DNA of 64,000 bases from an uncultured Desulfovibrionaceae bacterium (GTDB lineage: Bacteria; Desulfobacterota; Desulfovibrionia; Desulfovibrionales; Desulfovibrionaceae): the NCBI GenBank assembly GCA_964370245.1, contig CAYJIN010000002.1, forward strand, positions 841 through 64,840. The letters are read 5' to 3'. The translations under genes were made by a program, and so were the position numbers. Shown here one piece after another: positions 35,005 through 53,653 of the stretch. Numbering within the stretch: the stretch's first letter is position 1; each line of letters starts with the position of its first letter. The notes under the pieces were generated by a model. That model saw only the letters and a list, made by a program, of their open reading frames with translations, did not search any database and was not told the DNA's origin.

Positions 35005-36786
35005 TTAGAAAACCATGTGTTCCATATAGTAATTTGAGAAAGCAGGATATGCTGATAATTCAAGGTAAGTAGTTCTATCAATAATAGTTTTTACGTGTGC
35101 ATCAACATTTTTTTCTGTTGCATAGCGAATTACGCCAAGGCTTGCTGCATTACCAATAGCCTTTGTGCAATGCACAAGTTCCGCTGGAATAAGACCAATT
35201 CTGCCAGCATTTTTTGCATTCATCGCAGAACCAAAGCCACCTGCAATGTAAAGACTATCAATATCATCAAAACTAATGCCTGCTTCATCAAGCAAAATAT
35301 GAATTCCTGCACGCACAGCTGATTTCGCTAATTGCACTGATCGAATATCTTTTTGCGTGAAAGAAATGCTCTCTGTAAACTTCACATAAGCTTGCCCATT
35401 ATCGTCTTCAAAAAGACAATTTTCAAGCGAACCACTATCAGCATCAAACATACCAGTTTCATCAACAGCTTCGGCATCTAAAAGCATTGCAAGTGTATCA
35501 ACAACGCCAGAACCACAAATACCACATGCTGGTTTATCATTGATGGTAACATATTCAAATGATTTCTTATCTTCACTAAGAATAACATCACTTATAGCAC
35601 CGCTCTGCCCAGCTAAACCACAAGATATGTTTGCGCCTTCAAAGCATGGACCAGCCGCTGCTGAACATGCAAAAATTTTATCTTTATAACCAAGAACGAT
35701 TTCAGCATTTGTACCTAAATCGAGCAATAAATAAGGTTTTTCAGCACTATGCGCATTCACTGCAAGCAAAGCTGCAACAATATCTGCGCCAATATAGGAA
35801 GAAATAGAAGGCATAAGGAAAACATGCGCTTTTGATTTTATTCCAATTTTATTCGCTTTTACTCTTCTTGCTTCCATTGTTACAGGAATAAAAGGAGCTC
35901 TACCGATATTTTTCGCAGGAAGCCCACAAAGAAGATGCATCATTGTTGTATTACCAGTTATAGTAATATATTGAACATCAGTAACTTCAGGATAAAGATT
36001 TGCATTTTGTAAAAGCTTATTGCAAAGTTTTTCAATTTGACCCGCAACGGCAGATTGCAAAGCTTTAATGTTTTTTTCATAATCAGGTGTTGTTTCAGGA
36101 ATTGTTTGATTTATTCGGCTAAGAACATCCGCACCCCATGAGGCCTGTGCATTTGCTTCACCCATAACTGCTAAAACAGCGCCAGTTTGAAGATCAATAA
36201 GGGTTGTTGCAATAGTTGTTGTACCGATATCAACACTCATAGCTAAGTGATGATCTTTATTGGCTAAACCAATTACTGAATTTTTATATTTCAAAATAGA
36301 TAAAGCATTTTCTTCATGCATTTTATGAGACATAACACCAAGCTCATTAAAACCTAATTTATGGTCTTTGCAGTTTGAAGCTTCTAAAAGACGTGTTACA
36401 TCATCACGTTGATCGTGAATACTTGCCCCTTCAGTTACGATATCAATTCTTTCTACAAGAGGTTGAAATTCATAATTTTGTTCTGAGAAAGTTGTAAGAA
36501 CGGTAAGTGCTGTTTTTTCAAGAAGTTGAATTTCAAGCCCTTCTCTTGCAGTTGTGTAGCAGGCTAGACGGATGTTTTGAGCAAGTAATGATGGATTAAG
36601 CATTGCAACTTCTTCTAGAGTAGGATCAGTATTTGCAATAATGCGGCATTTACCACATTTACCCATTGAACCGCAAGTTTGATGAAGTAAGCCCTTTTCT
36701 TTAAGAAAATTTGTTACAGGAGTTCCCTCTTTTAAAGGAAACATATGTTTTTGCCCGTCATAGGAAACAGCAACGTTAACAGTCAT
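35005..36786 (-). CDS. corrinoid reductive activase (RACo / ASKHA-domain protein with N-terminal 2Fe-2S ferredoxin domain)
   Basis: 593-aa ORF. N-terminal plant-type ferredoxin Cys pattern (CGSMGKCGKCRI...LAC). The remainder resembles the ATP-dependent activators of corrinoid enzymes (DIGTTT, LDLGTNAE, GGFGS). Confidence 0.8.
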   Translation of the reverse strand: MTVNVAVSYDGQKHMFPLKEGTPVTNFLKEKGLLHQTCGSMGKCGKCRIIANTDPTLEEVAMLNPSLLAQNIRLACYTTAREGLEIQLLEKTALTVLTTFSEQNYEFQPLVERIDIVTEGASIHDQRDDVTRLLEASNCKDHKLGFNELGVMSHKMHEENALSILKYKNSVIGLANKDHHLAMSVDIGTTTIATTLIDLQTGAVLAVMGEANAQASWGADVLSRINQTIPETTPDYEKNIKALQSAVAGQIEKLCNKLLQNANLYPEVTDVQYITITGNTTMMHLLCGLPAKNIGRAPFIPVTMEARRVKANKIGIKSKAHVFLMPSISSYIGADIVAALLAVNAHSAEKPYLLLDLGTNAEIVLGYKDKIFACSAAAGPCFEGANISCGLAGQSGAISDVILSEDKKSFEYVTINDKPACGICGSGVVDTLAMLLDAEAVDETGMFDADSGSLENCLFEDDNGQAYVKFTESISFTQKDIRSVQLAKSAVRAGIHILLDEAGISFDDIDSLYIAGGFGSAMNAKNAGRIGLIPAELVHCTKAIGNAASLGVIRYATEKNVDAHVKTIIDRTTYLELSAYPAFSNYYMEHMVF

Positions 36787-36866
36787 AATGCACCCCGCAT
36801 TTTTTGGATATGATTAAAGCAGCAAATAATTTCTAAAAAAAGAAATCAGTAAAAAGAAATACTTAG

Positions 36867-36890
36867 AAATAAATAAATAAATAAATAAAT
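36867..36890. repeat. (AAAT)6 tetranucleotide microsatellite
   Basis: Six perfect AAAT units in the intergenic region upstream of the RACo gene. Confidence 0.9.
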
Positions 36891-37119
36891 AACGATAGAT
36901 AAAAAAAAAGAATAATTACAATAATTATTCAAGATATTTAATGCCCCCAGACTATATTTAATATAATCTTTGAAAAAACAAAAACTACACTAAATACAAT
37001 CCGGAGCAAAAGCCAATAAACTTCGGCAAACATCAAACAATCATCTTTTTACTTGAGGGTATAAGATGAAATCTCAAATGAGGTATGACAAAGAGCAAAA
37101 TAAAATAAATTATTTCACA

Positions 37120-37156
37120 GCGTTCCAAGTAAAAAAATCATTCTTACTTGGAACGC
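37120..37156 (-). terminator. 13-bp hairpin after the corrinoid protein gene
   Basis: GCGTTCCAAGTAA (37120-37132) pairs with TTACTTGGAACGC (37144-37156). The trailing sequence on the minus strand is only moderately U-rich. Confidence 0.6.
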
Positions 37157-37190
37157 ATATATCTAAAAGCTTATACTTTTTAATTATAGA

Positions 37191-37835
37191 CTATAATTTA
37201 GAAGCAGCTAATTTAAGAGCAGCTTCAGCAGCTGTTGATGCATCAGGTGTGTAGCAATCAGCGCCAATAGTATCACAGAAACCTTGGTTTACTGGTGCGC
37301 CACCAAGCATAACAACAGTTTTGTCAGCACGTTCGCTACCTTTTACTAAGTTAACAAGGTCTTTCATGAATGCCATTGTTGTTGTAAGAAGTGTTGAACA
37401 AGCGATGATTTGAGCATCGTTTTTGATAGCTTCTTCTAAGAATTTTTCAGGTGCAACGTTTACGCCAAGGTCAATAACTGTAAGACCTTTGCTTTCCATC
37501 ATCATACGAACAAGGTTTTTACCGATATCGTGAAGATCGTCTTTGATAGTACCGATAACAACAACACCTTTGTTTTGTGCTGATTCACCAACAAGAAGTG
37601 GACGAAGAACGTCTGTACCAGCAGCCATAGCACGTGCAGCGATAAGAACTTCAGGAATAAAGATGTCGTTATTTTTGAAACGTTCACCGATGATGTCCAT
37701 ACCAGGCATAAGACCTTTATCTAAAACATCTAATGGTGCAATACCTTCGTCAAGAGCTTGTTGTGTTAAAGCTGCTACGTCTTTAGTTTTACCTTTTTGT
37801 AATGCTGCAGAAAGTTGTTCAAATAATGCGCTCAT
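37191..37835 (-). CDS. cobalamin-binding corrinoid protein (MtbC/MttC/MtgC-like)
   Basis: N-terminal four-helix cap plus a Rossmann B12-binding domain with the DxHxxG motif (KDDLHDIGKN), a TLLTTT block and GGAPV. The start is taken at MSALFEQL after GAGG; the track ORF starts 5 codons earlier. Confidence 0.88.
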   Translation of the reverse strand: MSALFEQLSAALQKGKTKDVAALTQQALDEGIAPLDVLDKGLMPGMDIIGERFKNNDIFIPEVLIAARAMAAGTDVLRPLLVGESAQNKGVVVIGTIKDDLHDIGKNLVRMMMESKGLTVIDLGVNVAPEKFLEEAIKNDAQIIACSTLLTTTMAFMKDLVNLVKGSERADKTVVMLGGAPVNQGFCDTIGADCYTPDASTAAEAALKLAASKL

Positions 37836-37876
37836 AGTAGAATACCTCATATATTCATTAAAGTGTTAGTAGAAAA

Positions 37877-38761
37877 TTACAAAAGCTCCTCAATTTGCTT
37901 TTGCAAAGCCTCTCCTGTATTTTGCATACAAATAACTGTCAAAGGAACTTTTGGCATATCGTTTTTCTTCGATATAATTCCTTCTGGGCTATCAGTAATA
38001 AACCATACATCACTTCCAACTTCCACACAGCCTTTCACTCGTAAAAGTGAATCGTAAGATGATAAAACATCAATTAAAGCTTGTAAGTCTTTCACAGGTT
38101 TGGTTAAAGTGAAAGTATCAAGCCTTGTTTCTGGTGTGTTGAAAGAAAGTAATGGCATATTTTGTGGTAAAACCATATTCTTTGGTAATGATTGCAAATC
38201 TAAGTTTCCGTGATAGCTGTCAACAACAGGCACAGAAGGATTTACAGAAAGAATATAGTCGCGCGATGCTTGACGTTCCTCTTCAGTTGTTACATCAGAT
38301 TTGGTTAAGATGACAACATGTGCAGCTTTCACTTGACGTGGTATTACTTCTAATACATTAGCAAGTTTCAAGCTACGTTTAGGGTCAAACAAGCATATTA
38401 TGAGTGGTTCTTCATAATATTGATCAAGTTTAGCAAGATTGAGCATTTTAGTAACACCAGTAGGATCAGACATACCAGATGCTTCAACTAATACTCTTTC
38501 AGAATTATTTAATGAAAGTTGGAAAAGAGCTTTTACAAAGGCTTCTTTCAAGCAAGAACAAAAAACTGAGCCACCACCGATTTCAACTAATGGTGAATCG
38601 CCTTTTTCACTATCAATTAAAGCGCCATCAACAGGTGTGTCGCCAAAATCATTTAGTAAAACAGCAAGTCTTTTATCTTTACTTGATTTTATAAGATTTT
38701 GTAATATTGTTGTTTTTCCCGTGCCTAAAAAGCCCGAAAGAATAATAAGCTCTTTCTTCAT
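37877..38761 (-). CDS. CobW/COG0523-type G3E P-loop GTPase
   Basis: Walker A GFLGTGKTT, LNDFGD, and GGSVFCSC in place of the canonical GCICC, then EASGMSDP and TKSD. The start is set at the ATG (MKKELI). Confidence 0.75.
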   Translation of the reverse strand: MKKELIILSGFLGTGKTTILQNLIKSSKDKRLAVLLNDFGDTPVDGALIDSEKGDSPLVEIGGGSVFCSCLKEAFVKALFQLSLNNSERVLVEASGMSDPTGVTKMLNLAKLDQYYEEPLIICLFDPKRSLKLANVLEVIPRQVKAAHVVILTKSDVTTEEERQASRDYILSVNPSVPVVDSYHGNLDLQSLPKNMVLPQNMPLLSFNTPETRLDTFTLTKPVKDLQALIDVLSSYDSLLRVKGCVEVGSDVWFITDSPEGIISKKNDMPKVPLTVICMQNTGEALQKQIEELL

Positions 38762-38817
38762 TAAATAAACCAATCTTACGTGTTTTGATTAATAATATTT
38801 ATAGCATAATTTCAAAT

Positions 38818-38865: not shown

Positions 38866-38876
38866 AATTGAATAAA

Positions 38877-39917
38877 TTAATACTTATAAGCTTTTGCCAT
38901 TTCAACCATTTTTTGTGGGAAAGTGAAGTCTAGACAAGCTGGGAATTCACAACCAGTTGAAAGTACAAAACGTTGGGAAGGAGCAAAAATTTCAAATTCT
39001 TCATTAATTTTTGCTTCTAAAGTTTCTAAGTTCGCAGTCATGAACCAGCCTGGATCAATTGTGCCCATAAGAATAAATTTATCAGCATATTTTTCTACTG
39101 CTTCTTCCATTGTTGAACAGCCAGCAGGAATGTGGTTGAAAGAAACAAGTGATGGTTTCATTGTTTCGTATTGTTCATCAAAGTAAGCGCCTTGGCCACA
39201 GTTATGAAGCATAACTAGTTTGCCGTTTGCACGCACTCTATCAGCTAAACGAACCATGAAGTCGCCTTCAAATTCTTGCCACATACCAACGCTCATGATT
39301 GATTTTGAAGCATATAATGTATCAAACATAATAGCATCAACGCCAGTAGCACAAAGTTGGTCAATCCATTCTTCTAAAACTTGTGTAACAACTTCAACAG
39401 CTTCTAAAATTCCTTCAGGTGCTGTGTAAAGTTCCATAAACATATCTTCTTGGCCACGTAACATACTAACAATACCAAGTGGGCCGAAAACAAAAGCTAC
39501 AACAGGAATATCTTCGCCTAATTCTTTTACTAAAATTTCGCAAAGTTCAACGTGTTCTTGCATACGTGTAGCTGTTTTAAGATCAATCTTTTTAACATTG
39601 CCATAATCATCTTCTGTTGGAACAACGCGTTGATGGTGATCAGGGCATGCTGCTTTATCATTGAAATATAAAAGTGGTTGACCAAAGTCAGCAGCTTCAA
39701 CTGATAAATCAACTAAAGTACAAGCGCAATCTAAATCAAGTTCACGAGTTGTTTTGATGATAGCTTCAGCACATTTGTGAACATCTTTTGTCCATTCTTC
39801 ATAGTCGATACCGATTGCATTTCTTGAAACACTGTTGATAAGTGGGTAAACAGGAACACGATCAATAGGTTGTTTATTAAGCATTGCTGTTATGCGTTGT
39901 CTAGGTGTCATTGACAT
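38877..39917 (-). CDS. URO-D-family methylcobamide methyltransferase (MtaA/MtbA-like)
   Basis: 346-aa ORF with a typical N-terminus (RQRITAMLNKQPIDRVPV), an HxCG zinc motif (LHNCGQG) and a downstream Cys (STGCEFP). Confidence 0.75.
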   Translation of the reverse strand: MSMTPRQRITAMLNKQPIDRVPVYPLINSVSRNAIGIDYEEWTKDVHKCAEAIIKTTRELDLDCACTLVDLSVEAADFGQPLLYFNDKAACPDHHQRVVPTEDDYGNVKKIDLKTATRMQEHVELCEILVKELGEDIPVVAFVFGPLGIVSMLRGQEDMFMELYTAPEGILEAVEVVTQVLEEWIDQLCATGVDAIMFDTLYASKSIMSVGMWQEFEGDFMVRLADRVRANGKLVMLHNCGQGAYFDEQYETMKPSLVSFNHIPAGCSTMEEAVEKYADKFILMGTIDPGWFMTANLETLEAKINEEFEIFAPSQRFVLSTGCEFPACLDFTFPQKMVEMAKAYKY

Positions 39918-39994: not shown

Positions 39995-41350
39995 TTAAGC
40001 TTTTATGTCTAAAGCTTCTTGAAGCTCAGCAGCTAATTTTTGAACAGGTGGAATAAGTGAAATGTGGCGAACTTCACCATCAATCATAATTGAAGGAAGG
40101 TTTGCTAAGCCAACTTTAGTGATGTAAGCAAGAGTTTCTTTATACATAATTGAACGCTCAACAACTTTAACTTTATCACCAAAGCCTTTAGCTGCATCAT
40201 TTGCTGCTGCAACCATGTAACCACAAGCAGCACATGTTTGTGAATCAATTGTGATAACTTCTAAAGTTACATAATCATTCGCTTTGAAATCAGGAATTTC
40301 AACATCAGGAAGATCTGAAACTGCAACATAGCTTTCTAAAGCTTTACGCACTGCTTCAGTATTGTGAACTGCTTGACCAACACCAGCAACGTTTGCAGCA
40401 GGTGCATCAAATGGAACGTCACAACCAGGTGCAAGAATGAAGTTCTTTTTACCCATTTTATCCATCAATTCGATAGCTTCTTTTTGGTTATCTTGTTGTG
40501 TGCCAAGAAGCATTGTAATTGTAAGCTGTAAGTTACCTGACATTACGATATTGTAAGCATCAGTAATTTTTTTAGCTTCAACGATGTTTACGTTTTCATC
40601 GATAGCAATACATGATGGTTTTGTTTTACACATAGGTTCGATATTTTTAGTTGCATCACCACATACGAAGAATGATGAAGGAATGCCTAAATCTTCAATT
40701 GTTTTGAAGAGTCTTGAATATGAATCGTGTAAGAAAGTTTCAAACATATCAGGTGAAATTTGTGATACGAGTGGATCAACCGCTGCAATAATATCACAAC
40801 CAGCTTCAATGTAGTATTTTGCTAAATCAATAACAACATCTGTGCAGTATTCAACTAAAGCTTTAACTTCATCTTCGCTATCATACATATCCATGAAGAT
40901 ACCTGTTCCGCGTAAGTGAGAAGCTAATGTGAAAGGCCCACAAACTAAACCATACATTGCAATTTCAGGTTTAGCAGCTTTGAAGCGTTTCATAACGTCC
41001 ATAATTAATGGAATACGGCCGTCTGTTTTTTGTAATTTTTGTGTAGGAATTGTAAATTCGTTTGAAAGAGGGTGTGTGCAAACTGTTGGAGGTGTGTTTT
41101 TATACCATGTTAAGTCACAACCTAAGATTTCAGCTTCAACCTGTAAATCAAAGATTGCTGGCATACCATCAGCTTGATAGTCATCAGCTGCTTGTAAAAG
41201 ACACTCTAAGTATTTGTCTGCATTTTGGAACATTTCATCAGCTGCATAACCTTTTAAGTTAGCAATTTGTGAACCTGTATATGGAACCCAAGGTGTACGT
41301 GCAACATCTTTACCTTGTAAAACGTCCATAATAATCTGTTTACCTGTCAT
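39995..41350 (-). CDS. URO-D-family methyltransferase fused to a C-terminal thioredoxin-like (CxxC) domain
   Basis: The N-terminal 340 aa or so are URO-D/MtaA-like (DVARTPWVPYTG, FDLQVEAEILG, APGCDVP). The C-terminal 95 aa or so resemble small redox-active disulfide proteins (TCAACGYM...LPSIMIDGEV). Confidence 0.7.
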   Translation of the reverse strand: MTGKQIIMDVLQGKDVARTPWVPYTGSQIANLKGYAADEMFQNADKYLECLLQAADDYQADGMPAIFDLQVEAEILGCDLTWYKNTPPTVCTHPLSNEFTIPTQKLQKTDGRIPLIMDVMKRFKAAKPEIAMYGLVCGPFTLASHLRGTGIFMDMYDSEDEVKALVEYCTDVVIDLAKYYIEAGCDIIAAVDPLVSQISPDMFETFLHDSYSRLFKTIEDLGIPSSFFVCGDATKNIEPMCKTKPSCIAIDENVNIVEAKKITDAYNIVMSGNLQLTITMLLGTQQDNQKEAIELMDKMGKKNFILAPGCDVPFDAPAANVAGVGQAVHNTEAVRKALESYVAVSDLPDVEIPDFKANDYVTLEVITIDSQTCAACGYMVAAANDAAKGFGDKVKVVERSIMYKETLAYITKVGLANLPSIMIDGEVRHISLIPPVQKLAAELQEALDIKA

Positions 41351-41768: not shown

Positions 41769-42758
41769 CTATTTTAAAGCTTCAACAACTTTATCAACAA
41801 CTTCTTTACCGCCTACGAATTCGTAGTTTTTCGGCCAGATTTCGTCAATAGCAATTTGTTTCCATACTTGTTCATCTTCTAATTCAAAAACTTCAACGCC
41901 GCCAGCTTCCATAACAGCTCTAGCTTTTGCAGCATTTTCATTTTCCCAATCAAGAACATGCATTTGTGCAGCTAATGATGCATCTAACACGATTTGTTGA
42001 AGATCAGCTGGATAGCTTTGGAAGTTTTTCTCACCAATAAAACATGGTAAAAGTGAATATTGGTAGTGAACTTCAGTGAGGTAATCTTGAACTTCTTGGA
42101 ATTTCATAGTTGCGTTTACAACATATGGATTATCTTGCCCATCAACAACGCCTTGTTGCAAAGCAGTAAATGTTTCTGCCCATGCCATAGGAATTGGGTT
42201 TGCGCCCCAAGCTGAATATGTATCAACAAATACAGGGTTGTTAGGAACGCGGATTTTCAATCCTTTAATATCATTGATATTTTTTACAGGACGTTTTGAG
42301 TTTGTAAGATATCTATAGTTAGCATATGCATAACCTAAAATTCTTATGCCACCCTTTTCAATTGACATATTATTAAAGAAGTCAAACATTTCACCTGTTG
42401 TAGCTTTTACAACAGCTTCATCATTTTCCATCAAATAAGGCAATGTGAGTGTAGCTAAACCAGAAACGAAAGGAACAGCATTACCAATACCGATAACGCA
42501 CATATCAAGTGAACCACGGCGAACGTTTTGAAGCATTTCTGTTTCGTCACCTAAAGAAGAGTTTGGAAACAACTCAACAGTAACTTTACCGTTAGTTTCA
42601 GCTTCAACAATTTCTTTAAATTTTTTGCCGTATTCGCCAGAGCCTGAATCAATAGGATCACCGAGACCCATTTTGATTACGTCTTTTGCTAATGCATCAC
42701 CAGCACCAAGTGTAAGGCATACACCAAGAAGTGCACATGTAAAAAACTTTTTGAACAT
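41769..42758 (-). CDS. TRAP transporter solute-binding protein (DctP family), no DctQ/DctM partner nearby
   Basis: 329-aa ORF with a signal peptide (MFKKFFTCALLGVCLTLGAGDALA) and DctP-like sequence. AAGAGG RBS. Confidence 0.8.
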   Translation of the reverse strand: MFKKFFTCALLGVCLTLGAGDALAKDVIKMGLGDPIDSGSGEYGKKFKEIVEAETNGKVTVELFPNSSLGDETEMLQNVRRGSLDMCVIGIGNAVPFVSGLATLTLPYLMENDEAVVKATTGEMFDFFNNMSIEKGGIRILGYAYANYRYLTNSKRPVKNINDIKGLKIRVPNNPVFVDTYSAWGANPIPMAWAETFTALQQGVVDGQDNPYVVNATMKFQEVQDYLTEVHYQYSLLPCFIGEKNFQSYPADLQQIVLDASLAAQMHVLDWENENAAKARAVMEAGGVEVFELEDEQVWKQIAIDEIWPKNYEFVGGKEVVDKVVEALK

Positions 42759-42997
42759 AGATAACCTCTTTATAAAAAATATAAAAGAAGTAAATGTCGT
42801 TTGTCTACAATAGTCTTTTTTTTTGCTTTTGTTATAGACTAGACAAAATAATGTTTATTGTCAATAGTTTTATGCTAAATAAATTCATTTATTTCATTTA
42901 GAAATTTTAAGTAAGTTATAAAGCGGAAAAAACCCTAGATTGAGTATTCAACCAATTTTTCAACAATTGTGAAATAAGTAACTTGACTTTTTAATTT

Positions 42998-43038
42998 AAT
43001 TATTACTTTTTGGTAGCTTATACAAAAAAGTAATAATT
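42998..43038. repeat. perfect 14-bp inverted repeat with 13-nt spacer
   Basis: AATTATTACTTTTT (42998-43011) pairs with AAAAAGTAATAATT (43025-43038), in the divergent dctP / BCCT-1 intergenic region. Confidence 0.9.
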
Positions 43039-43383
43039 ATTTCTTTATAACTTATTGACATTAAAATAAAATAATGCGATAGTCACTTTAAAAGAAATAA
43101 GTATCTACTGTCTACAATACTTTTGCTTTACTTTATTACAATAATAATATTTCATTTTTTATGATTACCTTTATTAATGTCAATAAAGACGTGCCTTACT
43201 CCCCTACATATAAATGTTTTTTTCATTTATATCGTAATAATCTGCTTGTTGATTATTATTGCTAAAATGTTCACTGCAACCTAAATTACTAAATGTATCC
43301 CTTTGATATATCCCAAATATATATCTATATATTTACTAATTTAGTTTCTCGGAAATTCTAACAATTGAGGCTGGAGTTTTACT

Positions 43384-44919: not shown

Positions 44920-44957
44920 TTATTGAAATTTACTTTAGCGAAAAAAATCACAAGCTT

Positions 44958-44996
44958 AGAGAGGGTGTAAAACAAAATTTACATCCTCTCTTTTTT
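44958..44996 (+). terminator. rho-independent terminator after BCCT-1
   Basis: AGAGAGGGTGTAAA pairs with TTTACATCCTCTCT (14 bp including one G-U), followed by T5. Confidence 0.88.
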
Positions 44997-45435
44997 ATGC
45001 ATAAATTTCCTTCTAAAATGTAGAATATTTGTTTGCCTCTGAACAGTCTAGCATTAAACTATGTTATTACTTATTATTTAATAATTCATTGACCAATCAA
45101 CCAATTATTTTGTTTAAATATTTGAAAAGTCAATAAAATGTCTTGACTAATTTATATTATTATGGCATTACTATACATAAATATTTGGTTGGAAAAAGTG
45201 TTTTAACCTTTTCAACCAAAAAAATAAAAGGAGTAACTGTCGACAATCAACAATAATTTTTTTGCTGCTTTTTATTTTCCTTCACAAAATTAATAAAGAA
45301 AAAAATATGATGACCAAACATCATAATAATCTTTATAATGAATAGTTAAACTGTTGATTTTTTTTCTAATAGCTTAACTACTTAGTATGAGGCGCTTTTT
45401 GTGAAAAAATTCTAAAGTTTATGGAGTATTTATTT

Positions 45436-46866: not shown

Positions 46867-47177
46867 AACCAGTTTTTCTAACTAGTTTTATTCAGTAAAA
46901 TTCCTTTTTCGAATTTTGGATATAGTATTTATCCAAAAACTCTATACTTATATTCAAAATTCGATAAGGGTTTGAAATAATCACACAAAAATAATTATCA
47001 AAGTAGTAATCTAAAGGGGGGATTTATCTCTATCTTATACTATGTGATAAATCCTGATTATTAATGTATTGTAATTTAATTATTTTCGAATAACTTCCTT
47101 ATTTAATTCTCTTATTTGAATATAAAAAAATTATAATATCCTTTGATAGTATTTTATATAACTTTCGGAGGGGCTTT

Positions 47178-48926: not shown

Positions 48927-50303
48927 ATGAGACTTATTGATATTTACAGACGTACTACTTCAGGAGAAAAAGTAGACGAAAGTTCATACGATCTTGATTA
49001 CGTATACTTTGGTCTTGAAGATGTTAAAGAAAAATATGACATCAAATATAGCCCAGAAAACCCAGTTTCTGCTGATGATGATTTAGCTGACCGTGTTTTC
49101 AATGCAGCTGTAGAATTCTTTGAAAAAACAGGTATGTACTGTTCAGATACAGGGCGTATTGTTAAATTTACACGTGAAGAAATTGAATTTGCTATTTCAG
49201 AAGAAGGCCATCGCCGTTGTATCGGTGGTGAAGGCGAAAGCCGTCGTGAATGGCGTTGCCGTCGTCCTGACGAACACAGCCGCCCATGGTGCCACATTGG
49301 TTCAGGTATCTACACAAGCTCAGACGAACTTTTCTTAAAACAAGTTGAAGCTTATGCTAGAATTGCTCGTGCTGACTCAATGGCAATTCCAACTCTTATG
49401 AACGATCCTGAAGGTAATGATAACAACGAAGATTTCGCTTCACATCCATCAGAAGTTATGGCTACAATGCACAACATGCGTTTAGCTCGTGAAGCATGTA
49501 AAAATGCTGGCCGTCCTGGCTTCCCAGTATTCAACGTTGTTCCTTCATCATCATGCGCAATGTCAACAATCGCTGCTTCACACCCTAACTGTGGAACACG
49601 CACATCAGACGGTTGGTTATGTGCATTCTATCCTGAATTCAAATTGAAATTAGAAACACTTAACAAAATCACTTTCATCAATGAAATTGGTGGTAACCCA
49701 GCTGCTGAAGCTTCAACACTTCTTGGCGGTTTCTGTGGTGGTCCTGAAAACACATCTATCGGTGTTGTTGCTCACGCTATCATGGGTTGCTTACTCAACT
49801 GTACTTACTACTTAAACTTCCCAGTTACAGTAAAAGGCGCTCACTCAACAAGCCGTCCTCTTCTTTGGAGCTTAGGTCTTGCTTCACAAGCGATTTCTCG
49901 TAACATATTCTTACCTACATACAACTCAGGTTACTCAGCACACGGTGCAGGTACTAAAGAATACTTCTATCAATCAGCTGCTTACATCTTAACAGGTGTT
50001 ACATCTGGTGTTACAACAGGTACTCCTTTCCCTGCTGTTGGTGTTAAAACTGATGGTATGACTCCAATGGAGCCATTATTCCACACATTAATGGCTGATG
50101 CTGCATCAAAATTAACACGTGCACAAGCTAACCCAATCGTTCTAAAACTTCTTGAAAAATATGAAGATAAATTAGACAATCCAGATCTTGGTTACACATT
50201 CCCAGAACTCTACGACCTTGATACAGTAACTCCAAAACCACATTACCAAAAAATGTTTGATGAAGTTATTGAAGAATTAAAAGCTTTAGGCGTGCCTTTA
50301 TAA
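48927..50303 (+). CDS. MtmB-family (monomethylamine methyltransferase-like) protein lacking pyrrolysine
   Basis: 458-aa uninterrupted ORF. It is colinear by eye with archaeal MtmB as I recall it (GMYCSDTGRIVKFTREEI; ACKNAGRPG; C-terminal TFPELYDLDTVTPKPHY...LKALGVPL). The position matching Pyl202 is TTC (Phe) at 49530-49532. Confidence 0.75.
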   Translation: MRLIDIYRRTTSGEKVDESSYDLDYVYFGLEDVKEKYDIKYSPENPVSADDDLADRVFNAAVEFFEKTGMYCSDTGRIVKFTREEIEFAISEEGHRRCIGGEGESRREWRCRRPDEHSRPWCHIGSGIYTSSDELFLKQVEAYARIARADSMAIPTLMNDPEGNDNNEDFASHPSEVMATMHNMRLAREACKNAGRPGFPVFNVVPSSSCAMSTIAASHPNCGTRTSDGWLCAFYPEFKLKLETLNKITFINEIGGNPAAEASTLLGGFCGGPENTSIGVVAHAIMGCLLNCTYYLNFPVTVKGAHSTSRPLLWSLGLASQAISRNIFLPTYNSGYSAHGAGTKEYFYQSAAYILTGVTSGVTTGTPFPAVGVKTDGMTPMEPLFHTLMADAASKLTRAQANPIVLKLLEKYEDKLDNPDLGYTFPELYDLDTVTPKPHYQKMFDEVIEELKALGVPL

Positions 50304-50372: not shown

Positions 50373-50500
50373 AAAATCAATATTTTCCATATTTTTCTAT
50401 GGAACTATACTACTTTTTTATTTCAGCTTTATATCTTATACTATATTTTCTTATTTAGATTATTCCATTGAATGAAATAAAGAAAGAAGATGGAGTTTTT

Positions 50501-52036
50501 ATGAATAATGAAAAAATACCACATATTTACAAAAATTTAAATGTTTCACTTTTTTGTGTAACTATTACTTCTTTGATAGCTATTCTTAGCTACGCTTTTT
50601 TTGATTTTACTGCATTTAGTGAAACAATTAATTTTCTCAGAAGTGCTATAATTTCTAATATTTCTTGGTTTATTGTTATTAGTTTGAATGTTTTTCTATG
50701 TTTTTTACTTTATTTAGCTTTTTCAAAATATGGTGAAAAAAAACTAGGTAAAGACGATGAAAAACCTGAACTTTCAACTTTTTCTTGGGTTGCTTTACTT
50801 TTTGGTGCTGGCGTTGGTTCTGGCTTTTGTTTTTGGCCAATTGTTGAACCTTTATGGCATTACTATACAACACCATATCTCTATGAATCACAAACTAAAG
50901 AAGCACTTAGTCTAGCAAAAGCAATCACCTTTTATAATTGGGGTTTTCATATGTGGACACCCTGGGCTTTGGTTGCCTTAGCAATTGCTGTTCCAGCTTT
51001 TCGCCAATCAAAACCCATGACAATATCTGGTTCATTATTAGGTATCTTAAAAGAGAAAACTGATACCTCAATTTATGGAAAAATAGCCTCTATTATTGGG
51101 ATGATAGGAACTATTTTTGCCATTTCTATGGCATTAGCGACTGGAATTTTACTAATTTCAGCTGGCATATATGATGTTTTTGGCATAGAAGTAACTCCAC
51201 TGCATCAAATATATATAATGATTATCTTTACAATTATTTATGTAACTGCTGCATGTTCAGGCCTTGAAAAAGGTATGACTTTCTTAGGCGATTCTAACAT
51301 TTACATACTTGCAATTTGGTTTAGTTTTCTTCTTATTTCAGGGCCGACAGCTACTATGCTCAACGGTATAATAGACACACTTGGCGCTTACACAAGTTCA
51401 TTTTTTAAAATGGCATTATTCACCGATTCTACAAAACAAACCGATAATTGGCCTGGCACTTGGAGTATCTTTTATTATCTATGGAATATTGCATGGGCAC
51501 CTTATGTTGGCGGTTTTATTGCAAGAATTTCTCGTGGACGCACTATTCGACAGTTCATACTTGGAGTTTTGATTCTACCCGTAACAGTAACACTTGTTTG
51601 GGTTGGAATTATGGGCACAGGCGCTCAATATGTTGATCAAAATCAACTGCTTGATATTATGGCAAGAGTAAATAAAGACCCTGCTTTAGTTGTTTATGCT
51701 CTTATTGAAGCTTTTGGTGGTGGTATATTCATGAAAAGTCTAATATTACTAAACATAATAACTTTTGTTCTTACTGCTGCAAATTGCGCTTCATATTTTA
51801 TTGCAATGCAAATGACAAATGGTTCACTTAATCCACCGAAATTTCACCTTATTATTTGGGGAATTATTATTGGACTTTTAGCTATTATCGTTATAAATTT
51901 AGGTGGCGTAAGTGGAATTCAAGCAATAGCAGTTATTGCTGGCGCGCCATTTCTGTTTATTGTATGGATTATGGCTTTTTCACTTTTCTTATATTTAAAA
52001 AATGAAGAACAATTCTTCAATATACATAGCAAATAA
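50501..52036 (+). CDS. BCCT-family transporter, copy 3 (divergent)
   Basis: BCCT signature WSIFYYLWNIAWAPYVGGFIARISRGRTIRQF. The start is set at the ATG 5 nt after GGAG; the track ORF begins at a TTG at 50468. Confidence 0.88.
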   Translation: MNNEKIPHIYKNLNVSLFCVTITSLIAILSYAFFDFTAFSETINFLRSAIISNISWFIVISLNVFLCFLLYLAFSKYGEKKLGKDDEKPELSTFSWVALLFGAGVGSGFCFWPIVEPLWHYYTTPYLYESQTKEALSLAKAITFYNWGFHMWTPWALVALAIAVPAFRQSKPMTISGSLLGILKEKTDTSIYGKIASIIGMIGTIFAISMALATGILLISAGIYDVFGIEVTPLHQIYIMIIFTIIYVTAACSGLEKGMTFLGDSNIYILAIWFSFLLISGPTATMLNGIIDTLGAYTSSFFKMALFTDSTKQTDNWPGTWSIFYYLWNIAWAPYVGGFIARISRGRTIRQFILGVLILPVTVTLVWVGIMGTGAQYVDQNQLLDIMARVNKDPALVVYALIEAFGGGIFMKSLILLNIITFVLTAANCASYFIAMQMTNGSLNPPKFHLIIWGIIIGLLAIIVINLGGVSGIQAIAVIAGAPFLFIVWIMAFSLFLYLKNEEQFFNIHSK

Positions 52037-52048
52037 ATAGGTTATAAA

Positions 52049-52822
52049 ATGTCACAACTTTCCAATGAATTAAATTCTTTATTTTCAGCAGCAAAAGATG
52101 AAAAAACTTTTATTATTGCCTGCGATGTTTTTCGCAATGAATTAGAATATTTATGCAAAAAAAATTCTTATGCACCAACTATAATTTATCTTGAACAAGG
52201 CTTGCATGAATTACCAGCAACTATTGTAGAAGGCGTGCAAAAAGAAATTGATAAACTTGAAGAAGAACATGCTCCTGAAAGAATTTTCCTTGCTTATGGT
52301 TTATGTGGTAGAGGCCTCAGTGGCGTTCACTCTAAAAAGGCTCTACTGATTGTACCAAAAGTGCATGACTGCGTTCCACTCTTGCTTGGTACTGGCCCTG
52401 ATAATGATATTCGCCCACGCGAAAATGCTGAAACTTATTGGCTTTCCGCTGGTTGGTCAAGCTATTCTTGTAATTTCCACATAAAAGAAAGAGAAGAACG
52501 CTATAAAAAATATGTTGAAGATTATGGCCAAGATTCTGCTGATTATCTTATGGAAGTTGAGTATGCATGGAAAACTCAATATAAAGCTGTGTGTTTTATT
52601 CGATGGGAAGCAATTATCAATGATGAGATTATCAAAAACTCAAAAGCAGTTGTTGCGGATATGGGCTTACCTTATACTGAAACACAAGGTTCCTCTGACT
52701 ATTTAGAAGAGTTTTTGCGTGGTGGTGGCAATAAAAATAATTTTTTCCATATCGAACCCTACTTCACTCTTGATTTAGATACAGAAGGTAAACTTACGCT
52801 TTTACCAGTAAAAACAGATTAG
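52049..52822 (+). CDS. DUF1638-like protein (copy 1)
   Basis: 257-aa ORF with the motifs IIACDVFRNELE, YLEQGLHELP, YGLCGRGL and VHDCVPLLLG. It lies 12 nt downstream of BCCT-3. The family name is from memory. Confidence 0.6.
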   Translation: MSQLSNELNSLFSAAKDEKTFIIACDVFRNELEYLCKKNSYAPTIIYLEQGLHELPATIVEGVQKEIDKLEEEHAPERIFLAYGLCGRGLSGVHSKKALLIVPKVHDCVPLLLGTGPDNDIRPRENAETYWLSAGWSSYSCNFHIKEREERYKKYVEDYGQDSADYLMEVEYAWKTQYKAVCFIRWEAIINDEIIKNSKAVVADMGLPYTETQGSSDYLEEFLRGGGNKNNFFHIEPYFTLDLDTEGKLTLLPVKTD

Positions 52823-52843
52823 CTTAAGTTATGCTATATAAAT

Positions 52844-52877
52844 AGACTAGCCATTTATAAAATGCTAGTCTTTTTTT
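52844..52877 (+). terminator. rho-independent terminator after DUF1638 copy 1
   Basis: AGACTAGC (52844-52851) pairs with GCTAGTCT (52864-52871), followed by a T run to 52877. Confidence 0.85.
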
Positions 52878-52927
52878 ATGTAATACTTTAACTTTAAAAT
52901 ATATTTATTATTATATTTCAGATAGTT

Positions 52928-53653
52928 TTATATTTGTTTTACAGATAAAATTCCTTCATTATTTAAGTGTAAATAATCGCCTGCTTTTACGTGGAAAAAT
53001 TTATTAGTATCTACTCCACCCTCAACAAATTCTTTCAAATACCAGCTTTCACCTGTAATAATTTCAAGTGGAAGTTCACAAATATTAGCAATATCTTGTG
53101 CGCCTTTATTGCCTGTGATTAATTCTTCTTTAAAAATTTCATCCCATTTCACAAAAGTTACGTTTTTATACATTTTAGTGAAATCAAATTCAACACCAAT
53201 TAAATAATCTGCCGTATCTTCATCATACTTTTCTAGATATTCTTGATATCTTTCTTCTTTATCTCTGATATATCTGCATGTTGCATAATCAATCCAACCT
53301 GCTGAAAGCCAAACTGTTTCAGCAAAGCGCGAATCACGCCTTTCACCATCTGGCCCTGTTCCAAGAATAAGAGGAATACAATCATGCGTTTTAGGGAAAA
53401 TAAGTAATGCTTTTTCTGCAGTTACTGTTTCAAGCCCTGTTCCACAAAAACCAAAACCCATCAAAATTTCATCAGGTGCAAATTCTTCTTCCATTTTATT
53501 CACAGCTTCTTGTGTTTCAGCTCGTAATTTATCAGGATAATAATGCAAACCTTGCTCAAGGTAAACAATACAATATTCATTACTTTTTTGAGAAATAAGA
53601 AATTCAATTTCTGGCCTAAAGACTTCGCATGAAATTATATACTTTTTTTTCAT
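52928..53653 (-). CDS. DUF1638-like protein (copy 2)
   Basis: 241-aa ORF, paralog of 52049..52822 with the same motif set (IISCEVFRPEIE, YLEQGLHYYP, FGFCGTGL, THDCIPLILG). GGAG RBS. Confidence 0.6.
   Translation of the reverse strand: MKKKYIISCEVFRPEIEFLISQKSNEYCIVYLEQGLHYYPDKLRAETQEAVNKMEEEFAPDEILMGFGFCGTGLETVTAEKALLIFPKTHDCIPLILGTGPDGERRDSRFAETVWLSAGWIDYATCRYIRDKEERYQEYLEKYDEDTADYLIGVEFDFTKMYKNVTFVKWDEIFKEELITGNKGAQDIANICELPLEIITGESWYLKEFVEGGVDTNKFFHVKAGDYLHLNNEGILSVKQI

What the first reader, a model, noticed from the sequence alone, without database searches (positions are those of the whole stretch)
35005..53653. Nineteen-kb corrinoid methyl-transfer island with three BCCT carriers, no regulator and no pterin-type methyltransferase
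Between yedF and yhhQ lie, in order: a RACo-type activase, a corrinoid protein, a CobW-type GTPase, two URO-D-family methyltransferases, an orphan TRAP binding protein, BCCT-1, an MttB-like gene, BCCT-2, an MtmB-like gene, BCCT-3 and two DUF1638 genes. Three things are unusual. First, two different substrate:corrinoid methyltransferase superfamilies share a single visible corrinoid protein. Second, the only candidate methyl-corrinoid acceptor enzymes are URO-D/MtaA-type. In methanogens these methylate a thiol (coenzyme M). The MeTr/MtgA-type pterin methyltransferase used by acetogens is absent. Third, no transcription factor is encoded. Nearly every gene has its own terminator and a long AT-rich leader of 200-600 nt. 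If the host is a Desulfovibrionales-like organism, the fate of the methyl group (thiol acceptor, THF, or something else) is unclear.
Basis: partly seen in the sequence, partly recalled or inferred. Interest (0 to 1): 0.75.

Follow-up and report, generated by a model that had tools for sequence, protein, structure and literature searches.

The report
Quaternary-amine demethylation cluster, unusual second methyltransferase
This is a real gene cluster in a Desulfovibrio-family bacterium that strips methyl groups from imported betaine- or choline-like compounds using vitamin B12. The enzyme that should pass the methyl group on is an uncharacterised zinc-type methyltransferase fused to a thioredoxin-like domain, also found in the gut bacterium Bilophila, so where the methyl group goes is still unknown.

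Summary
The gene order reported at 35005-53653 is correct in every family assignment. Two methyl-donor enzymes share one B12 (corrinoid) carrier protein: a non-pyrrolysine MttB homologue (Leu324 at the pyrrolysine position) and a non-pyrrolysine MtmB homologue (Phe there). No pterin-type methyltransferase and no DNA-binding regulator was found among ORFs of 100 aa or more in the 64 kb window. Strong hairpins follow 10 of the 13 genes.

- The 451-aa URO-D protein is a fusion of an MtaA-like barrel with a thioredoxin-like CxxC domain. The zinc-binding His is replaced by an invariant Phe.
- This fusion, almost always with a CobW GTPase and usually with the corrinoid protein, DUF1638 and a RACo activase, is a constant core in Bilophila, Mailhella, Desulfobaculum, Desulfoluna and Desulforhopalus. 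Spirochaete-like loci keep only the fusion-CobW pair. The donor enzymes vary around this core (Pyl-MttB, non-Pyl MttB, non-Pyl MtmB, other URO-D proteins).
- The island is therefore modular, not a chance juxtaposition.

Best reading: the fusion is the shared second methyltransferase and unloads the corrinoid protein onto a non-pterin, probably thiol-type acceptor. This is inferred, not shown. Two distant loci carry a pterin-binding gene nearby, so a folate route encoded elsewhere is not excluded.

The parts
35005..36786 (-). RACo/RamA-type ATP-dependent corrinoid reductive activase with an N-terminal 2Fe-2S-like Cys set (C38, C44, C47, C76)
   Evidence: Pfam RACo_C_ter 233 bits and Raco_middle 160 bits. 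NCBIfam AcsV and RamA models match below their cut-offs. Cys positions. Orthologues are 43-62% identical in the related clusters.
37191..37850 (-). The single corrinoid (B12) carrier protein, with the DxHxxG motif at D105 (DLHDIG)
   Evidence: Pfam B12-binding_2 + B12-binding. Best NCBIfam matches are pyl_corrinoid and MtgC, both below cut-off. Motif. 71-77% identical to the Bilophila and Mailhella-like orthologues.
37877..38773 (-). CobW/COG0523 GTPase, putative metal chaperone for the URO-D methyltransferases (P-loop GFLGTGKT, C72-S-C74)
   Evidence: Pfam cobW 111 bits. Weak matches to ZigA and CobW NCBIfam models. A CobW gene lies directly downstream of the URO-D-Trx gene in most related loci that extend far enough, and elsewhere in the cluster in Desulfoluna and L053.
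38877..39917 (-). 346-aa MtaA-like URO-D methyltransferase with the canonical His-Cys-Cys zinc triad (H238, C240, C323); an accessory member of the core
   Evidence: Pfam URO-D 164 bits. The triad is invariant in 116 homologues. 69-80% identical orthologues sit in the Bilophila and Mailhella-like clusters. Absent from the Desulfoluna, Desulfobaculum and Desulforhopalus clusters.
39995..41350 (-). 451-aa fusion of an MtaA-like URO-D barrel (residues 1-330) with a thioredoxin-like CxxC domain (residues 361-450); candidate shared second methyltransferase
   Evidence: Best PDB match is MtaA 4ay7, E 3.7e-22; the C-terminus matches thioredoxin 1nho, E 5.7e-5. AlphaFold2 pLDDT 91.4, pTM 0.88. Foldseek gives MtaA with TM 0.88. 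Thioredoxin_3 scores 22.5 bits against a gathering cut-off of 24.8. C230 and C373-x-x-C376 are invariant and C310 nearly so; F228 replaces the MtaA zinc-ligand His. The protein is 55-89% identical across Desulfovibrionaceae, Desulfoluna, Desulforhopalus and Spirochaetales.
41769..42758 (-). Orphan DctP-family TRAP solute-binding protein with a signal peptide
   Evidence: Pfam DctP 233 bits. Passes NCBIfam TRAP_S1 and dctP. 42-53% identical orthologues lie inside the Desulfoluna and Mailhella-like clusters. No DctQ/M found among the annotated ORFs of the window.
42759..43383 (.). 625-nt AT-rich divergent control region holding two copies (42782-42812 and 43089-43119) of a 31-nt motif
   Evidence: the pattern TAAAAGNARTAANTRTC-N5-TCWACAATA has 3 matches in 64 kb, all in island leaders, and 0 in 100 shuffles. 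The pattern was derived from these copies. It is not found in the Mailhella locus.
43384..44919 (+). BCCT carrier 1 (78% identical to BCCT 2; tandem duplicate with 3794-nt spacing)
   Evidence: Pfam BCCT 489 bits. Identity. Repeat spacing.
45225..45255 (+). Third copy of the 31-nt leader motif, 166 nt upstream of the MttB-like gene
45421..46866 (+). Non-pyrrolysine MttB-superfamily substrate:corrinoid methyltransferase (donor enzyme; substrate unassigned)
   Evidence: Pfam MTTB 337 bits. Leu324 sits at the column where relatives have an in-frame TAG at codon 327. Best PDB match is the D. hafniense glycine betaine methyltransferase MtgB, E 1e-73. The MtgB glycine betaine ligands are only partly kept: Y97 becomes F, R312 stays R, H348 becomes G, F356 becomes L (read by hand from the alignment; ligand list from PMC13080624).
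47178..48719 (+). BCCT carrier 2
   Evidence: Pfam BCCT 476 bits.
48927..50303 (+). Non-pyrrolysine MtmB-family methyltransferase (donor enzyme; MtqB-like by family)
   Evidence: Pfam MtmB 239 bits, full length, no internal stop. The M. barkeri MtmB Pyl202 aligns to Phe in ...PGFPVFNVV.... 72-81% identical orthologues lie next to MttB-like genes in Mailhella and Desulfoluna.
50468..52036 (+). BCCT carrier 3 (47-49% identical to carriers 1 and 2)
   Evidence: Pfam BCCT 456 bits. Identity.
52049..52822 (+). DUF1638 protein a, probable accessory of corrinoid reactivation
   Evidence: Pfam DUF1638 106.5 bits. A DUF1638 gene is present in almost every related core cluster. Genetic link to RamA-like reactivation in PMC5764234; induced on glycine betaine in PMC12478193.
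52928..53653 (-). DUF1638 protein b (45% identical to a), convergent with a and sharing a hairpin at about 52843-52871
   Evidence: Pfam DUF1638 104 bits. Identity. Hairpin. The Mailhella locus L025 also has two DUF1638 genes in tandem.

Best explanation
The island is a modular, corrinoid-dependent methyl-transfer system for quaternary amines imported by the BCCT carriers.

**Donor modules.** There are two. One is BCCT plus a non-Pyl MttB homologue. The other is BCCT plus a non-Pyl MtmB homologue, which belongs to the same family as the choline/tetramethylammonium enzyme MtqB. Each donor enzyme methylates the Co(I) form of the single corrinoid protein.

**Constant core.** The core is the URO-D-thioredoxin fusion, the CobW GTPase, the corrinoid protein, DUF1638 and RACo, plus here a second URO-D enzyme with a His-Cys-Cys triad. 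It does the rest:
- RACo, with DUF1638, re-reduces oxidised Co(II) at the cost of ATP.
- CobW loads the metal site of the URO-D enzymes.
- The URO-D-thioredoxin fusion is the shared second methyltransferase. It takes the methyl group off the corrinoid protein and puts it on an acceptor.

**Acceptor.** The fusion keeps the two zinc-ligand cysteines of the coenzyme M methylase MtaA and travels with a metal chaperone. The acceptor is therefore most likely a soft nucleophile (a thiol, sulfide or similar) rather than tetrahydrofolate.

**Shown versus inferred.**
- Shown: the families, the shared architecture and the conservation.
- Inferred: the role of the fusion as second methyltransferase (about 0.6), a thiol-type acceptor (about 0.4), and the substrates of the two donor enzymes.
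For: **Families.**

**Both donor enzymes lack pyrrolysine.**

**The core recurs with different donor enzymes.**
- Desulfobaculum bizertense has a compact MttB-BCCT-URO-D-Trx-CobW-CP-DUF1638-RACo gene array. There the fusion is the only candidate second methyltransferase.
- Desulforhopalus has the same core beside a divergent MttB gene and a sigma-54 activator.
- Bilophila and Mailhella-like loci have the core next to a Pyl-MttB with TAG at codon 327. The Mailhella-like loci also carry pylSBCD beside it.
- Desulfoluna has the core with MttB and MtmB.
- L053 has the core with a different 384-aa URO-D protein.

A constant partner against variable donors is the pattern expected of a shared second methyltransferase.

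**CobW linkage.** In most of the metagenome loci longer than 6 kb that extend past the fusion gene, a CobW gene follows it directly.

**Fold and active site of the fusion.**
- MtaA is the best match by sequence and by fold.
- C230 is invariant and C310 nearly invariant.
- The 346-aa URO-D protein has an invariant His-Cys-Cys triad. PMC10418091 describes this triad as the signature of S- or Se-methyltransferases in this superfamily.

**No pterin-type enzyme.** None is in the window, and none was seen in the Desulfobacterota loci examined.

**Literature.**
- The known pterin-methylating second methyltransferases are of the MtrH or pterin-binding type (PMC8630106, PMC8318568).
- PMC10418091 refers to a URO-D-type H4folate methyltransferase only as a possible 'undiscovered' enzyme.
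Against: - No biochemical or expression data exist for any member of the fusion family.
- The fusion lacks the MtaA zinc-ligand His (an invariant Phe228 sits there), so its metal site, if it has one, is not the canonical thiol-methylase site.
- URO-D-family enzymes can also work as donor-side enzymes (MtsA, CmuA, O-demethylases), so the direction of transfer is not fixed by the family.
- Two distant loci, L066 and L069 (56% identity), have a 289-aa Pterin_bind gene about 3 kb from the fusion. L069 also has a homocysteine S-methyltransferase, MTHFR and EtfAB. There the fusion coexists with folate-linked modules.
- Only 64 kb of this genome is visible, so a pterin methyltransferase encoded elsewhere cannot be excluded.
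Confidence: 0.55

Rival explanations
1. The methyl group goes to tetrahydrofolate through a conventional pterin-binding or MtrH-type methyltransferase encoded elsewhere in the genome. The two URO-D proteins are extra donor-side enzymes (for methylated thiols, as with MtsA) or serve a side function on the same corrinoid protein.
For: - L066 and L069 place a Pterin_bind gene near the fusion.
- In the Mailhella MAG the modules of one system lie on different contigs, so parts encoded in trans are normal for this family.
- Marine Deltaproteobacteria with Pyl-MttB have a MetH-family gene nearby (PMC8318568).
- The URO-D family includes donor-side enzymes (phylogeny legend in PMC8630106).
Against: [quoted passage not shown]
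- Here the Desulfobacterota cluster layouts examined lack it, and all contain the fusion.
- The fusion stays constant while the donor enzymes vary, which is the opposite of what is expected of a substrate-specific enzyme.
Confidence: 0.22
2. The URO-D-thioredoxin fusion is itself a new kind of methylcorrinoid:tetrahydrofolate methyltransferase, and the methyl group is oxidised as an electron donor for sulfate or sulfite respiration.
For: - Physiologically this is the simplest use of methyl groups in sulfate or sulfite reducers.
- The His ligand typical of thiol methylases is lost.
- MetE, a structural relative in the same fold class, binds methyl-folate.
- PMC10418091 raises the possibility of an undiscovered URO-D-type folate methylase.
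Against: - No URO-D-family enzyme is reported to methylate a pterin in the papers read here.
- The cysteines at both MtaA zinc-ligand positions are conserved and a metal chaperone is tightly linked. Both point to metal-activated soft-nucleophile chemistry, which folate N5 methylation does not need.
Confidence: 0.1
3. Two unrelated systems lie side by side. One is an mlp-type cluster (URO-D proteins, corrinoid protein, activase, next to YedF) for methyl-sulfur or methyl-selenium salvage. The other is a set of BCCT-linked donor enzymes that use a different corrinoid protein encoded elsewhere.
For: - The core formally resembles the mlp gene clusters of PMC10418091: several SCMT-like URO-D proteins, a corrinoid protein and a RACE activase, with no folate methylase.
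- A selenium-associated YedF homologue is the next gene.
- In Mailhella the two modules are unlinked.
Against: - In Desulfoluna, Desulfobaculum, Desulforhopalus and Bilophila the MttB or MtmB genes sit inside or directly next to the core, with only one corrinoid protein.
- The YedF adjacency is not found in any related locus.
- The fusion lacks the His-Cys-Cys triad described as nearly invariant in Mlps.
- The mlp paper's supplementary files do not name Bilophila, Mailhella or Desulfoluna, although many tree labels there are only numbered.
Confidence: 0.08

Closest known systems
Bacterial quaternary amine:tetrahydrofolate systems (D. hafniense MtgB/MtgC/MtgA; E. limosum MtpB, MtcB or MtyB with MtqC/MtqA/RamQ)
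   Same: A non-Pyl MttB-superfamily donor enzyme, a cognate corrinoid protein with DxHxxG, and a RamA/RACo-type activase. The window's MttB-like protein has MtgB as its best PDB match (E 1e-73).
   Different: Those systems use a pterin-binding or MtrH-type second methyltransferase encoded in the cluster. Here that enzyme is absent and URO-D-type enzymes take its place. This cluster also adds CobW, DUF1638, a TRAP binding protein and an MtmB-family donor. The glycine betaine ligands of MtgB are only partly conserved.
Methanogen MtqB/MtqC/MtqA(MtbA) tetramethylammonium/choline:coenzyme M pathway (Methanococcoides methylutens Q3c, PMC13044021)
   Same: A non-Pyl MtmB homologue as donor enzyme and a URO-D (MtbA/MtaA-type) second methyltransferase.
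   Different: The host is a bacterium with no sign of methanogenesis. The URO-D proteins fall far below the MtaA and MtbA equivalog cut-offs. One is fused to a thioredoxin-like domain and lacks the zinc-ligand His. Membership of the window's protein in the MtqB clade could not be tested because no MtqB sequence was available.
Bilophila pyrrolysine-dependent TMA methyltransferase locus (PMC7593587)
   Same: The same core genes at 48-72% identity (URO-D-Trx, CobW, corrinoid protein, DUF1638, RACo, 348-aa URO-D) surround the Bilophila Pyl-MttB. That paper also notes a non-Pyl MtmB-like gene in Bilophila.
   Different: The window has no Pyl-MttB and no pyl genes. Its donors are non-Pyl MttB and MtmB homologues with three BCCT carriers. 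In the passages searched, the paper lists the activase and the corrinoid protein as accessory genes but names no second methyltransferase.
Type 1 mlp gene clusters (Kountz and Balskus, PMC10418091)
   Same: Several SCMT-like URO-D proteins, a corrinoid protein and a RACE-type activase, with no folate methylase. The 346-aa protein has the His-Cys-Cys triad.
   Different: The type 1 clusters described in that paper have no MttB- or MtmB-family donors and no thioredoxin fusion, and their Mlps almost always keep His-Cys-Cys. Clade membership (Mlp2 or Mlp3) could not be tested.
Split methionine synthase with RamA-like protein and DUF1638 (Phaeobacter and Ruegeria; PMC5764234, PMC12478193)
   Same: A stand-alone corrinoid protein shared between modules, served by a RamA-like activase and a DUF1638 protein. 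In Ruegeria the same corrinoid protein links glycine betaine demethylation and methionine synthesis.
   Different: Those systems use pterin-binding and homocysteine-binding modules of the MetH type. None is present here. Only the distant locus L069 combines such modules with the URO-D-Trx fusion.

Membership tests
MttB superfamily, non-pyrrolysine branch | Full-length PF06253 domain | tested here: met
   337 bits against a cut-off of 25; profile positions 28-494 of 500.
MttB superfamily, non-pyrrolysine branch | A sense codon at the pyrrolysine position | tested here: met
   Leu324 aligns with the in-frame TAG (codon 327) of the Pyl-MttB genes in L011, L025 and L013.
MtgB (glycine betaine-specific MttB member) | Glycine betaine ligands Y97, R312, H348 and F356 (PMC13080624) | tested here: not met
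   Reading the alignment to 9yce/2qne by hand gives F, R, G (with a His one residue earlier) and L. Only two of the four are functionally conserved, so the substrate is left open.
MtmB family, non-pyrrolysine branch (MtqB-like) | Full-length PF05369 domain without an in-frame stop | tested here: met
   239 bits; profile positions 3-449 of 450; a single 458-aa ORF. Pyl202 of M. barkeri MtmB aligns to Phe.
MtmB family, non-pyrrolysine branch (MtqB-like) | Placement in the MtqB clade and the conserved Met-Cys pair near the ligand | not testable with these tools
   No MtqB sequence was available. PMC13044021 gives only positions in a sequence logo.
Methylcobamide:CoM methyltransferases MtaA/MtbA | Score above the NCBIfam equivalog cut-offs | tested here: not met
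   URO-D-Trx: MtaA 131 against 400, MtbA 124 against 600. The 346-aa protein: MtbA 82 against 600, MtaA 65 against 400.
Methylcobamide:CoM methyltransferases MtaA/MtbA | His-x-Cys ... Cys zinc triad | tested here: inconclusive
   The 346-aa protein has H238, C240 and C323, invariant in 116 homologues. The fusion has F228, C230 and C310, with F228 invariant in the 59-sequence alignment.
Methylcobamide:CoM methyltransferases MtaA/MtbA | MtaA-like TIM-barrel fold | tested here: met
   Foldseek to 4ay7: TM 0.88 normalised by target length, rmsd 2.4 A, from a model with pLDDT 91.4.
Type 1 mlp gene cluster | At least two SCMT-like URO-D genes, a corrinoid protein and a RACE activase, with no folate methylase | tested here: met
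Type 1 mlp gene cluster | The URO-D proteins fall in the Mlp2 and Mlp3 clades | not testable with these tools
   Only tree files are held in the paper's supplement, with no sequences. They do not name Bilophila, Mailhella or Desulfoluna.
Pterin-type second methyltransferase (MeTr/MtgA/MtqA, MtrH) | A PF00809 or PF02007 domain encoded in the cluster | tested here: not met
   None among the window ORFs of at least 100 aa. tblastn with the MetH pterin domain gives no hit in the window or in the 22 related loci held at that point.
RACo/RamA corrinoid reductive activase | RACo middle and ASKHA C-terminal domains plus an N-terminal Fe-S Cys motif | tested here: met
   Cys 38, 44, 47 and 76.
Thioredoxin-fold CxxC domain (PF13192-like) | Thioredoxin fold with a conserved CxxC | tested here: met
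   1nho match at E 5.7e-5. Thioredoxin_3 scores 22.5 bits against a gathering cut-off of 24.8 in the window protein, and several orthologues carry a precomputed PF13192 match. The model shows a strand-helix-strand, helix, two-strand, helix order at residues 361-450. C373 and C376 are invariant.

The most novel reading that the evidence does not exclude
The URO-D-thioredoxin fusion, with its CobW partner, is a new class of second methyltransferase. In Bilophila and other sulfide-producing or sediment anaerobes it sends methyl groups from TMA, choline and betaines to a non-pterin sulfur acceptor (sulfide, giving methanethiol, or a small thiol cofactor). This would be a third fate for corrinoid-bound methyl groups, besides coenzyme M in methanogens and folate in acetogens. 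The CxxC domain would act on the acceptor or on the enzyme's own metal-site cysteines.
Probability: 0.3. Interest if true: 0.85.

Novelty: new variant of a known kind. Interest (0 to 1): 0.62.

Why it matters
Corrinoid-dependent demethylation of TMA, choline and betaines by gut bacteria such as Bilophila removes precursors of TMAO, a metabolite linked to cardiovascular disease. [quoted passage not shown] This analysis names one specific, highly conserved candidate: the URO-D-thioredoxin fusion with its CobW partner. It also shows that the candidate is the constant element across clusters with different donor enzymes. The open question of where the methyl group goes can now be tested directly with a few recombinant proteins. 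If the acceptor proves to be a thiol or sulfide, it would link quaternary-amine breakdown to methanethiol and sulfur chemistry in the gut and in marine sediments.

Tried and rejected
- **Source contig.** Exact-sequence look-ups of the window's MtmB-like protein and of the identical hit P0001 found no encoding contig. A cluster look-up for six proteins, four from the window and two close homologues, returned no names. The host is therefore inferred only from relatives.
- **Genome scan.** The first attempt, with a 29-sequence alignment, failed for lack of a conserved stretch. A closer 12-sequence alignment worked.
- **Riboswitches and conserved leader RNA.**
  - Rfam at gathering threshold finds only a tRNA.
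  - The permissive search gives only a sub-threshold PYLIS_3 match inside the MttB-like coding sequence and a weak PreQ1 match outside the island.
  - blastn-short of all leaders against relatives found no conserved non-coding element.
  - Small ORFs in the two largest leaders look like noise.
- **31-nt leader motif.** It is not present in the Mailhella locus, so it is treated only as a lead.
- **YedF and the chemoreceptor as part of the system.** Both rejected. YedF has no counterpart in any related locus. The chemoreceptor similarity is limited to the generic signalling domain.
- **Firmicutes homologues of the 346-aa URO-D protein (50-58% identical).** They are stand-alone genes in the two loci examined (L015 and L016/L017) and say nothing about function.
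- **mlp-cluster membership.** It could not be tested because the paper's supplement holds trees only.
- **Ligand of the TRAP binding protein.** PDB matches are unspecific.
- **DUF1638.** It has no solved relative.
- **Geometry of the fusion.** The AlphaFold tool returns no coordinates, so the distance between the CxxC pair and C230/C310 could not be measured.

Full report
**1. The observation**

- On the minus strand: RACo, a corrinoid protein, CobW, two URO-D proteins (346 and 451 aa) and an orphan DctP-type TRAP binding protein.
- On the plus strand: BCCT, MttB-like, BCCT, MtmB-like, BCCT and DUF1638.
- A second DUF1638 gene lies on the minus strand, convergent with the first.
- The flanks are a YedF homologue, which passes TIGR03527, and a Vut_1/YhhQ homologue.
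- The rest of the window holds housekeeping genes: lpxB, nusA, infB, arg genes and hemB.
- GC is about 0.33 throughout, so nothing marks the region as recently acquired.

Component details:
- The corrinoid protein has DxHxxG at D105.
- RACo has four N-terminal cysteines.
- BCCT1 and BCCT2 are 78% identical.
- The two DUF1638 proteins are 45% identical.
- The two URO-D proteins are only 23% identical.

**2. The three 'unusual things'**

*Two donor superfamilies, one corrinoid protein.*
- The MttB-like gene is an uninterrupted ORF. Leu324 sits at the column where relatives carry an in-frame TAG at codon 327.
- A sub-threshold PYLIS_3 match (36.4 bits against a gathering score of 38) starts exactly at that codon. 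I read it as coding-sequence homology.
- The MtmB-like protein is full length. Phe aligns with Pyl202 of M. barkeri MtmB.
- Only one B12-binding protein is encoded.

*No pterin-type methyltransferase.*
- None of the ORFs of at least 100 aa in the window has a Pterin_bind or MtrH domain.
- A six-frame tblastn with the E. coli MetH pterin domain finds nothing in the window or in the 22 related loci held at that point.

*No regulator, many terminators, long leaders.*
- No helix-turn-helix protein was found among ORFs of at least 100 aa in the window.
- Folding the sequence just after each stop codon gives a strong hairpin after 10 genes, with z from -3.1 to -7.9.
- About half of these are followed by a U-tract. 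The others could be stabilising or processing hairpins.
- Intergenic spacers are longer than elsewhere in the window: median 151 nt against 71 nt.
- No known riboswitch is present.
- A 31-nt motif occurs three times, only in the island's leaders. It is not conserved in Mailhella.

**3.

- Residues 1-330 are MtaA-like. The best PDB match is 4ay7 at E 3.7e-22, and Foldseek gives TM 0.88.
- Residues 361-450 form a thioredoxin fold:
  - a 1nho match at E 5.7e-5;
  - Thioredoxin_3 at 22.5 bits against a gathering cut-off of 24.8;
  - a precomputed PF13192 match in several orthologues;
  - a secondary-structure order typical of the thioredoxin fold in an AlphaFold2 model with pLDDT 91.4 and pTM 0.88.
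- Across 116 full-length homologues that are 55-89% identical:
  - C230 is invariant, and C310 is conserved in 99% of them. These are the positions of the two MtaA zinc-ligand cysteines.
  - The CxxC pair C373/C376 is invariant.
  - The MtaA zinc-ligand His is replaced by Phe228, which is invariant in the 59-sequence alignment.
  - C137 and H145 are nearly invariant and are specific to this family.
- By contrast, the 346-aa URO-D protein keeps an invariant His238-Cys240-Cys323 triad. PMC10418091 describes this triad as the signature of S- or Se-methyltransferases in the URO-D superfamily.
- Neither protein reaches the NCBIfam cut-offs for MtaA or MtbA.

**4. Comparative genomics: a constant core with variable donors**

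| Source | Arrangement |
|---|---|
| Desulfoluna spp. | BCCT, URO-D-Trx, RACo, DctP, MttB, MtmB, CP, CobW, DUF1638, all in one direction; unrelated genes follow |
| Desulfobaculum bizertense | compact array MttB, BCCT, URO-D-Trx, CobW, CP, DUF1638, RACo |
| Desulforhopalus | the core beside a divergent MttB and a sigma-54 activator |
| Bilophila | BCCT, non-Pyl MttB, URO-D-Trx, CobW, CP, DUF1638, RACo, Pyl-MttB, then a 348-aa URO-D protein 69% identical to the window's 346-aa protein |
| Mailhella-like loci (80-87% identical) | pylSBCD, URO-D-Trx, 346-aa URO-D, CobW, CP, DUF1638 (two copies in L025), RACo, Pyl-MttB |
| Same Mailhella MAG, another contig | MttB, BCCT, MtmB, BCCT |

A metagenome scan returned 79 loci.
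- In most loci that extend past the fusion gene, a CobW gene follows it directly.
- The partner methyltransferase varies: Pyl-MttB, non-Pyl MttB, MtmB, or other URO-D types such as the 384-aa protein in L053.
- In Spirochaete-like loci only the URO-D-Trx-CobW pair persists.

The window therefore joins a conserved core to two BCCT-linked donor modules. The juxtaposition is functional, not accidental.

**5. Mechanism**

- Steps supported by family membership:
  - BCCT carriers import a quaternary amine.
  - The MttB-like and MtmB-like enzymes methylate Co(I)-corrinoid protein.
  - RACo re-reduces Co(II).
- DUF1638 is genetically tied to RamA-like reactivation (PMC5764234) and is induced on glycine betaine in Ruegeria (PMC12478193).
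- Inferred step: the fusion is the second methyltransferase. It is the one methyltransferase that stays constant while the donors change. In the compact Desulfobaculum array it is the only candidate.
- Conserved cysteines at both MtaA zinc-ligand positions and the tight CobW linkage point to metal-activated methylation of a soft nucleophile.
- The known pterin-methylating second methyltransferases are of the MtrH or pterin-binding type (PMC8630106, PMC8318568).
- PMC10418091 mentions a URO-D-type H4folate methyltransferase only as a possible 'undiscovered' enzyme.
- The role of the CxxC domain is open. It could keep the metal-site cysteines or the acceptor reduced, or it could supply ligands.
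- The substrates of the donor enzymes are also open:
  - The MttB-like protein keeps only two of the four glycine betaine ligands of MtgB (PMC13080624).
  - The only characterised non-Pyl MtmB is MtqB, which acts on choline and tetramethylammonium (PMC13044021).

**6. Caveats and rivals**

- Two distant loci, L066 and L069, have a 289-aa Pterin_bind gene about 3 kb from the fusion.
- L069 also has a homocysteine S-methyltransferase gene directly after CobW, plus MTHFR and EtfAB. This neighbourhood resembles a split methionine synthase.
- The fusion can therefore coexist with folate modules, and its direction of transfer is not settled.
- With only 64 kb visible, a pterin methyltransferase encoded elsewhere cannot be excluded.
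- The core formally resembles the mlp clusters of PMC10418091, but those lack MttB or MtmB donors and the fusion. Clade membership could not be tested.
- The YedF adjacency is not conserved.

**7. What is known, and novelty**

- The Bilophila Pyl-MttB locus, with its activase and corrinoid protein, has been described (PMC7593587). No second methyltransferase is named in the passages searched there.
- PMC8318568 states that this enzyme is uncharacterised in bacteria.
- Five of the seven full-text searches returned nothing that described a URO-D-thioredoxin fusion. These covered DUF1638 with corrinoid, Desulfoluna with betaine, Bilophila with pyrrolysine, Bilophila with MttB, and sulfate reducers with MtbA.
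- I classify the finding as a new variant of a known kind. It is a three-component corrinoid methyltransferase system whose second methyltransferase, together with its CobW and DUF1638 accessories, differs from both the acetogen type and the methanogen type.
- The value of the finding lies less in this particular window than in the conserved candidate it exposes.

Noticed in passing
window 54658-54705 (-): A weak PreQ1 riboswitch match (22.8 bits against a gathering score of 39, E about 1) lies upstream of the Vut_1/YhhQ gene at 53776-54474. From my own knowledge, YhhQ-family queuosine-precursor transporters are often controlled by preQ1 riboswitches, so the context fits even though the score does not.
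   Followed up: no
window 46390-46489 (+): A PYLIS_3 (mttB pyrrolysine insertion sequence) match at 36.4 bits, just under the gathering score of 38, lies inside the non-Pyl MttB-like gene. It starts exactly at codon 324 (Leu), the column where relatives have the UAG codon. Most likely it is residual coding homology.
   Followed up: partly
window 42782-42812, 43089-43119, 45225-45255 (+): A 31-nt motif (TAAAAGNARTAANTRTC-N5-TCWACAATA) occurs three times, only in the leaders of BCCT1/DctP and the MttB-like gene. It is a candidate shared promoter or operator for a regulator encoded elsewhere. It is not conserved in the Mailhella locus.
   Followed up: partly
L069 5215-12690 and L066 7981-15054: In two distant metagenome loci the URO-D-Trx-CobW pair sits close to a 289-aa pterin-binding protein. 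L069 also has a homocysteine S-methyltransferase, MTHFR and EtfAB, alongside RACo and DUF1638. L066 has another URO-D gene and an AraC regulator instead. The L069 gene set looks like a split methionine synthase.
   Followed up: partly
L011 3809-8133 and L025 5389-9991: Close relatives (80-87% identical core genes) carry a pylS/pylB/pylC/pylD-like gene set directly upstream of the URO-D-Trx gene, and a Pyl-MttB with TAG at codon 327 downstream. The window has neither, so this lineage may have lost or relocated the pyrrolysine part.
   Followed up: partly
window 34216-34866 (-): A YedF-type selenium-metabolism protein (TusA + DsrE-like; passes TIGR03527) is the gene immediately after RACo. A terminator hairpin separates them, and the adjacency is absent from all related loci.
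   Followed up: yes
window 15179-16205: The LytB/IspH ORF (15633-16205, 190 aa, TTG start) covers only profile positions 1-168 of 267, and a 454-nt gap with no ORF of at least 100 aa lies downstream of it. This may be a frameshift, a pseudogene or an assembly error.
   Followed up: no
window 43384-48719: BCCT1 and BCCT2 are a recent duplication: 78% identical at the protein level, with 73-82% DNA identity and the same 3794-nt register. Each donor enzyme gene is therefore preceded by its own copy of nearly the same carrier.
   Followed up: partly
L016/L017 7100-9041: A Firmicutes homologue of the 346-aa URO-D protein sits next to a small 199-aa CobW-domain protein. So the URO-D/CobW pairing also occurs outside the corrinoid clusters.
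   Followed up: no
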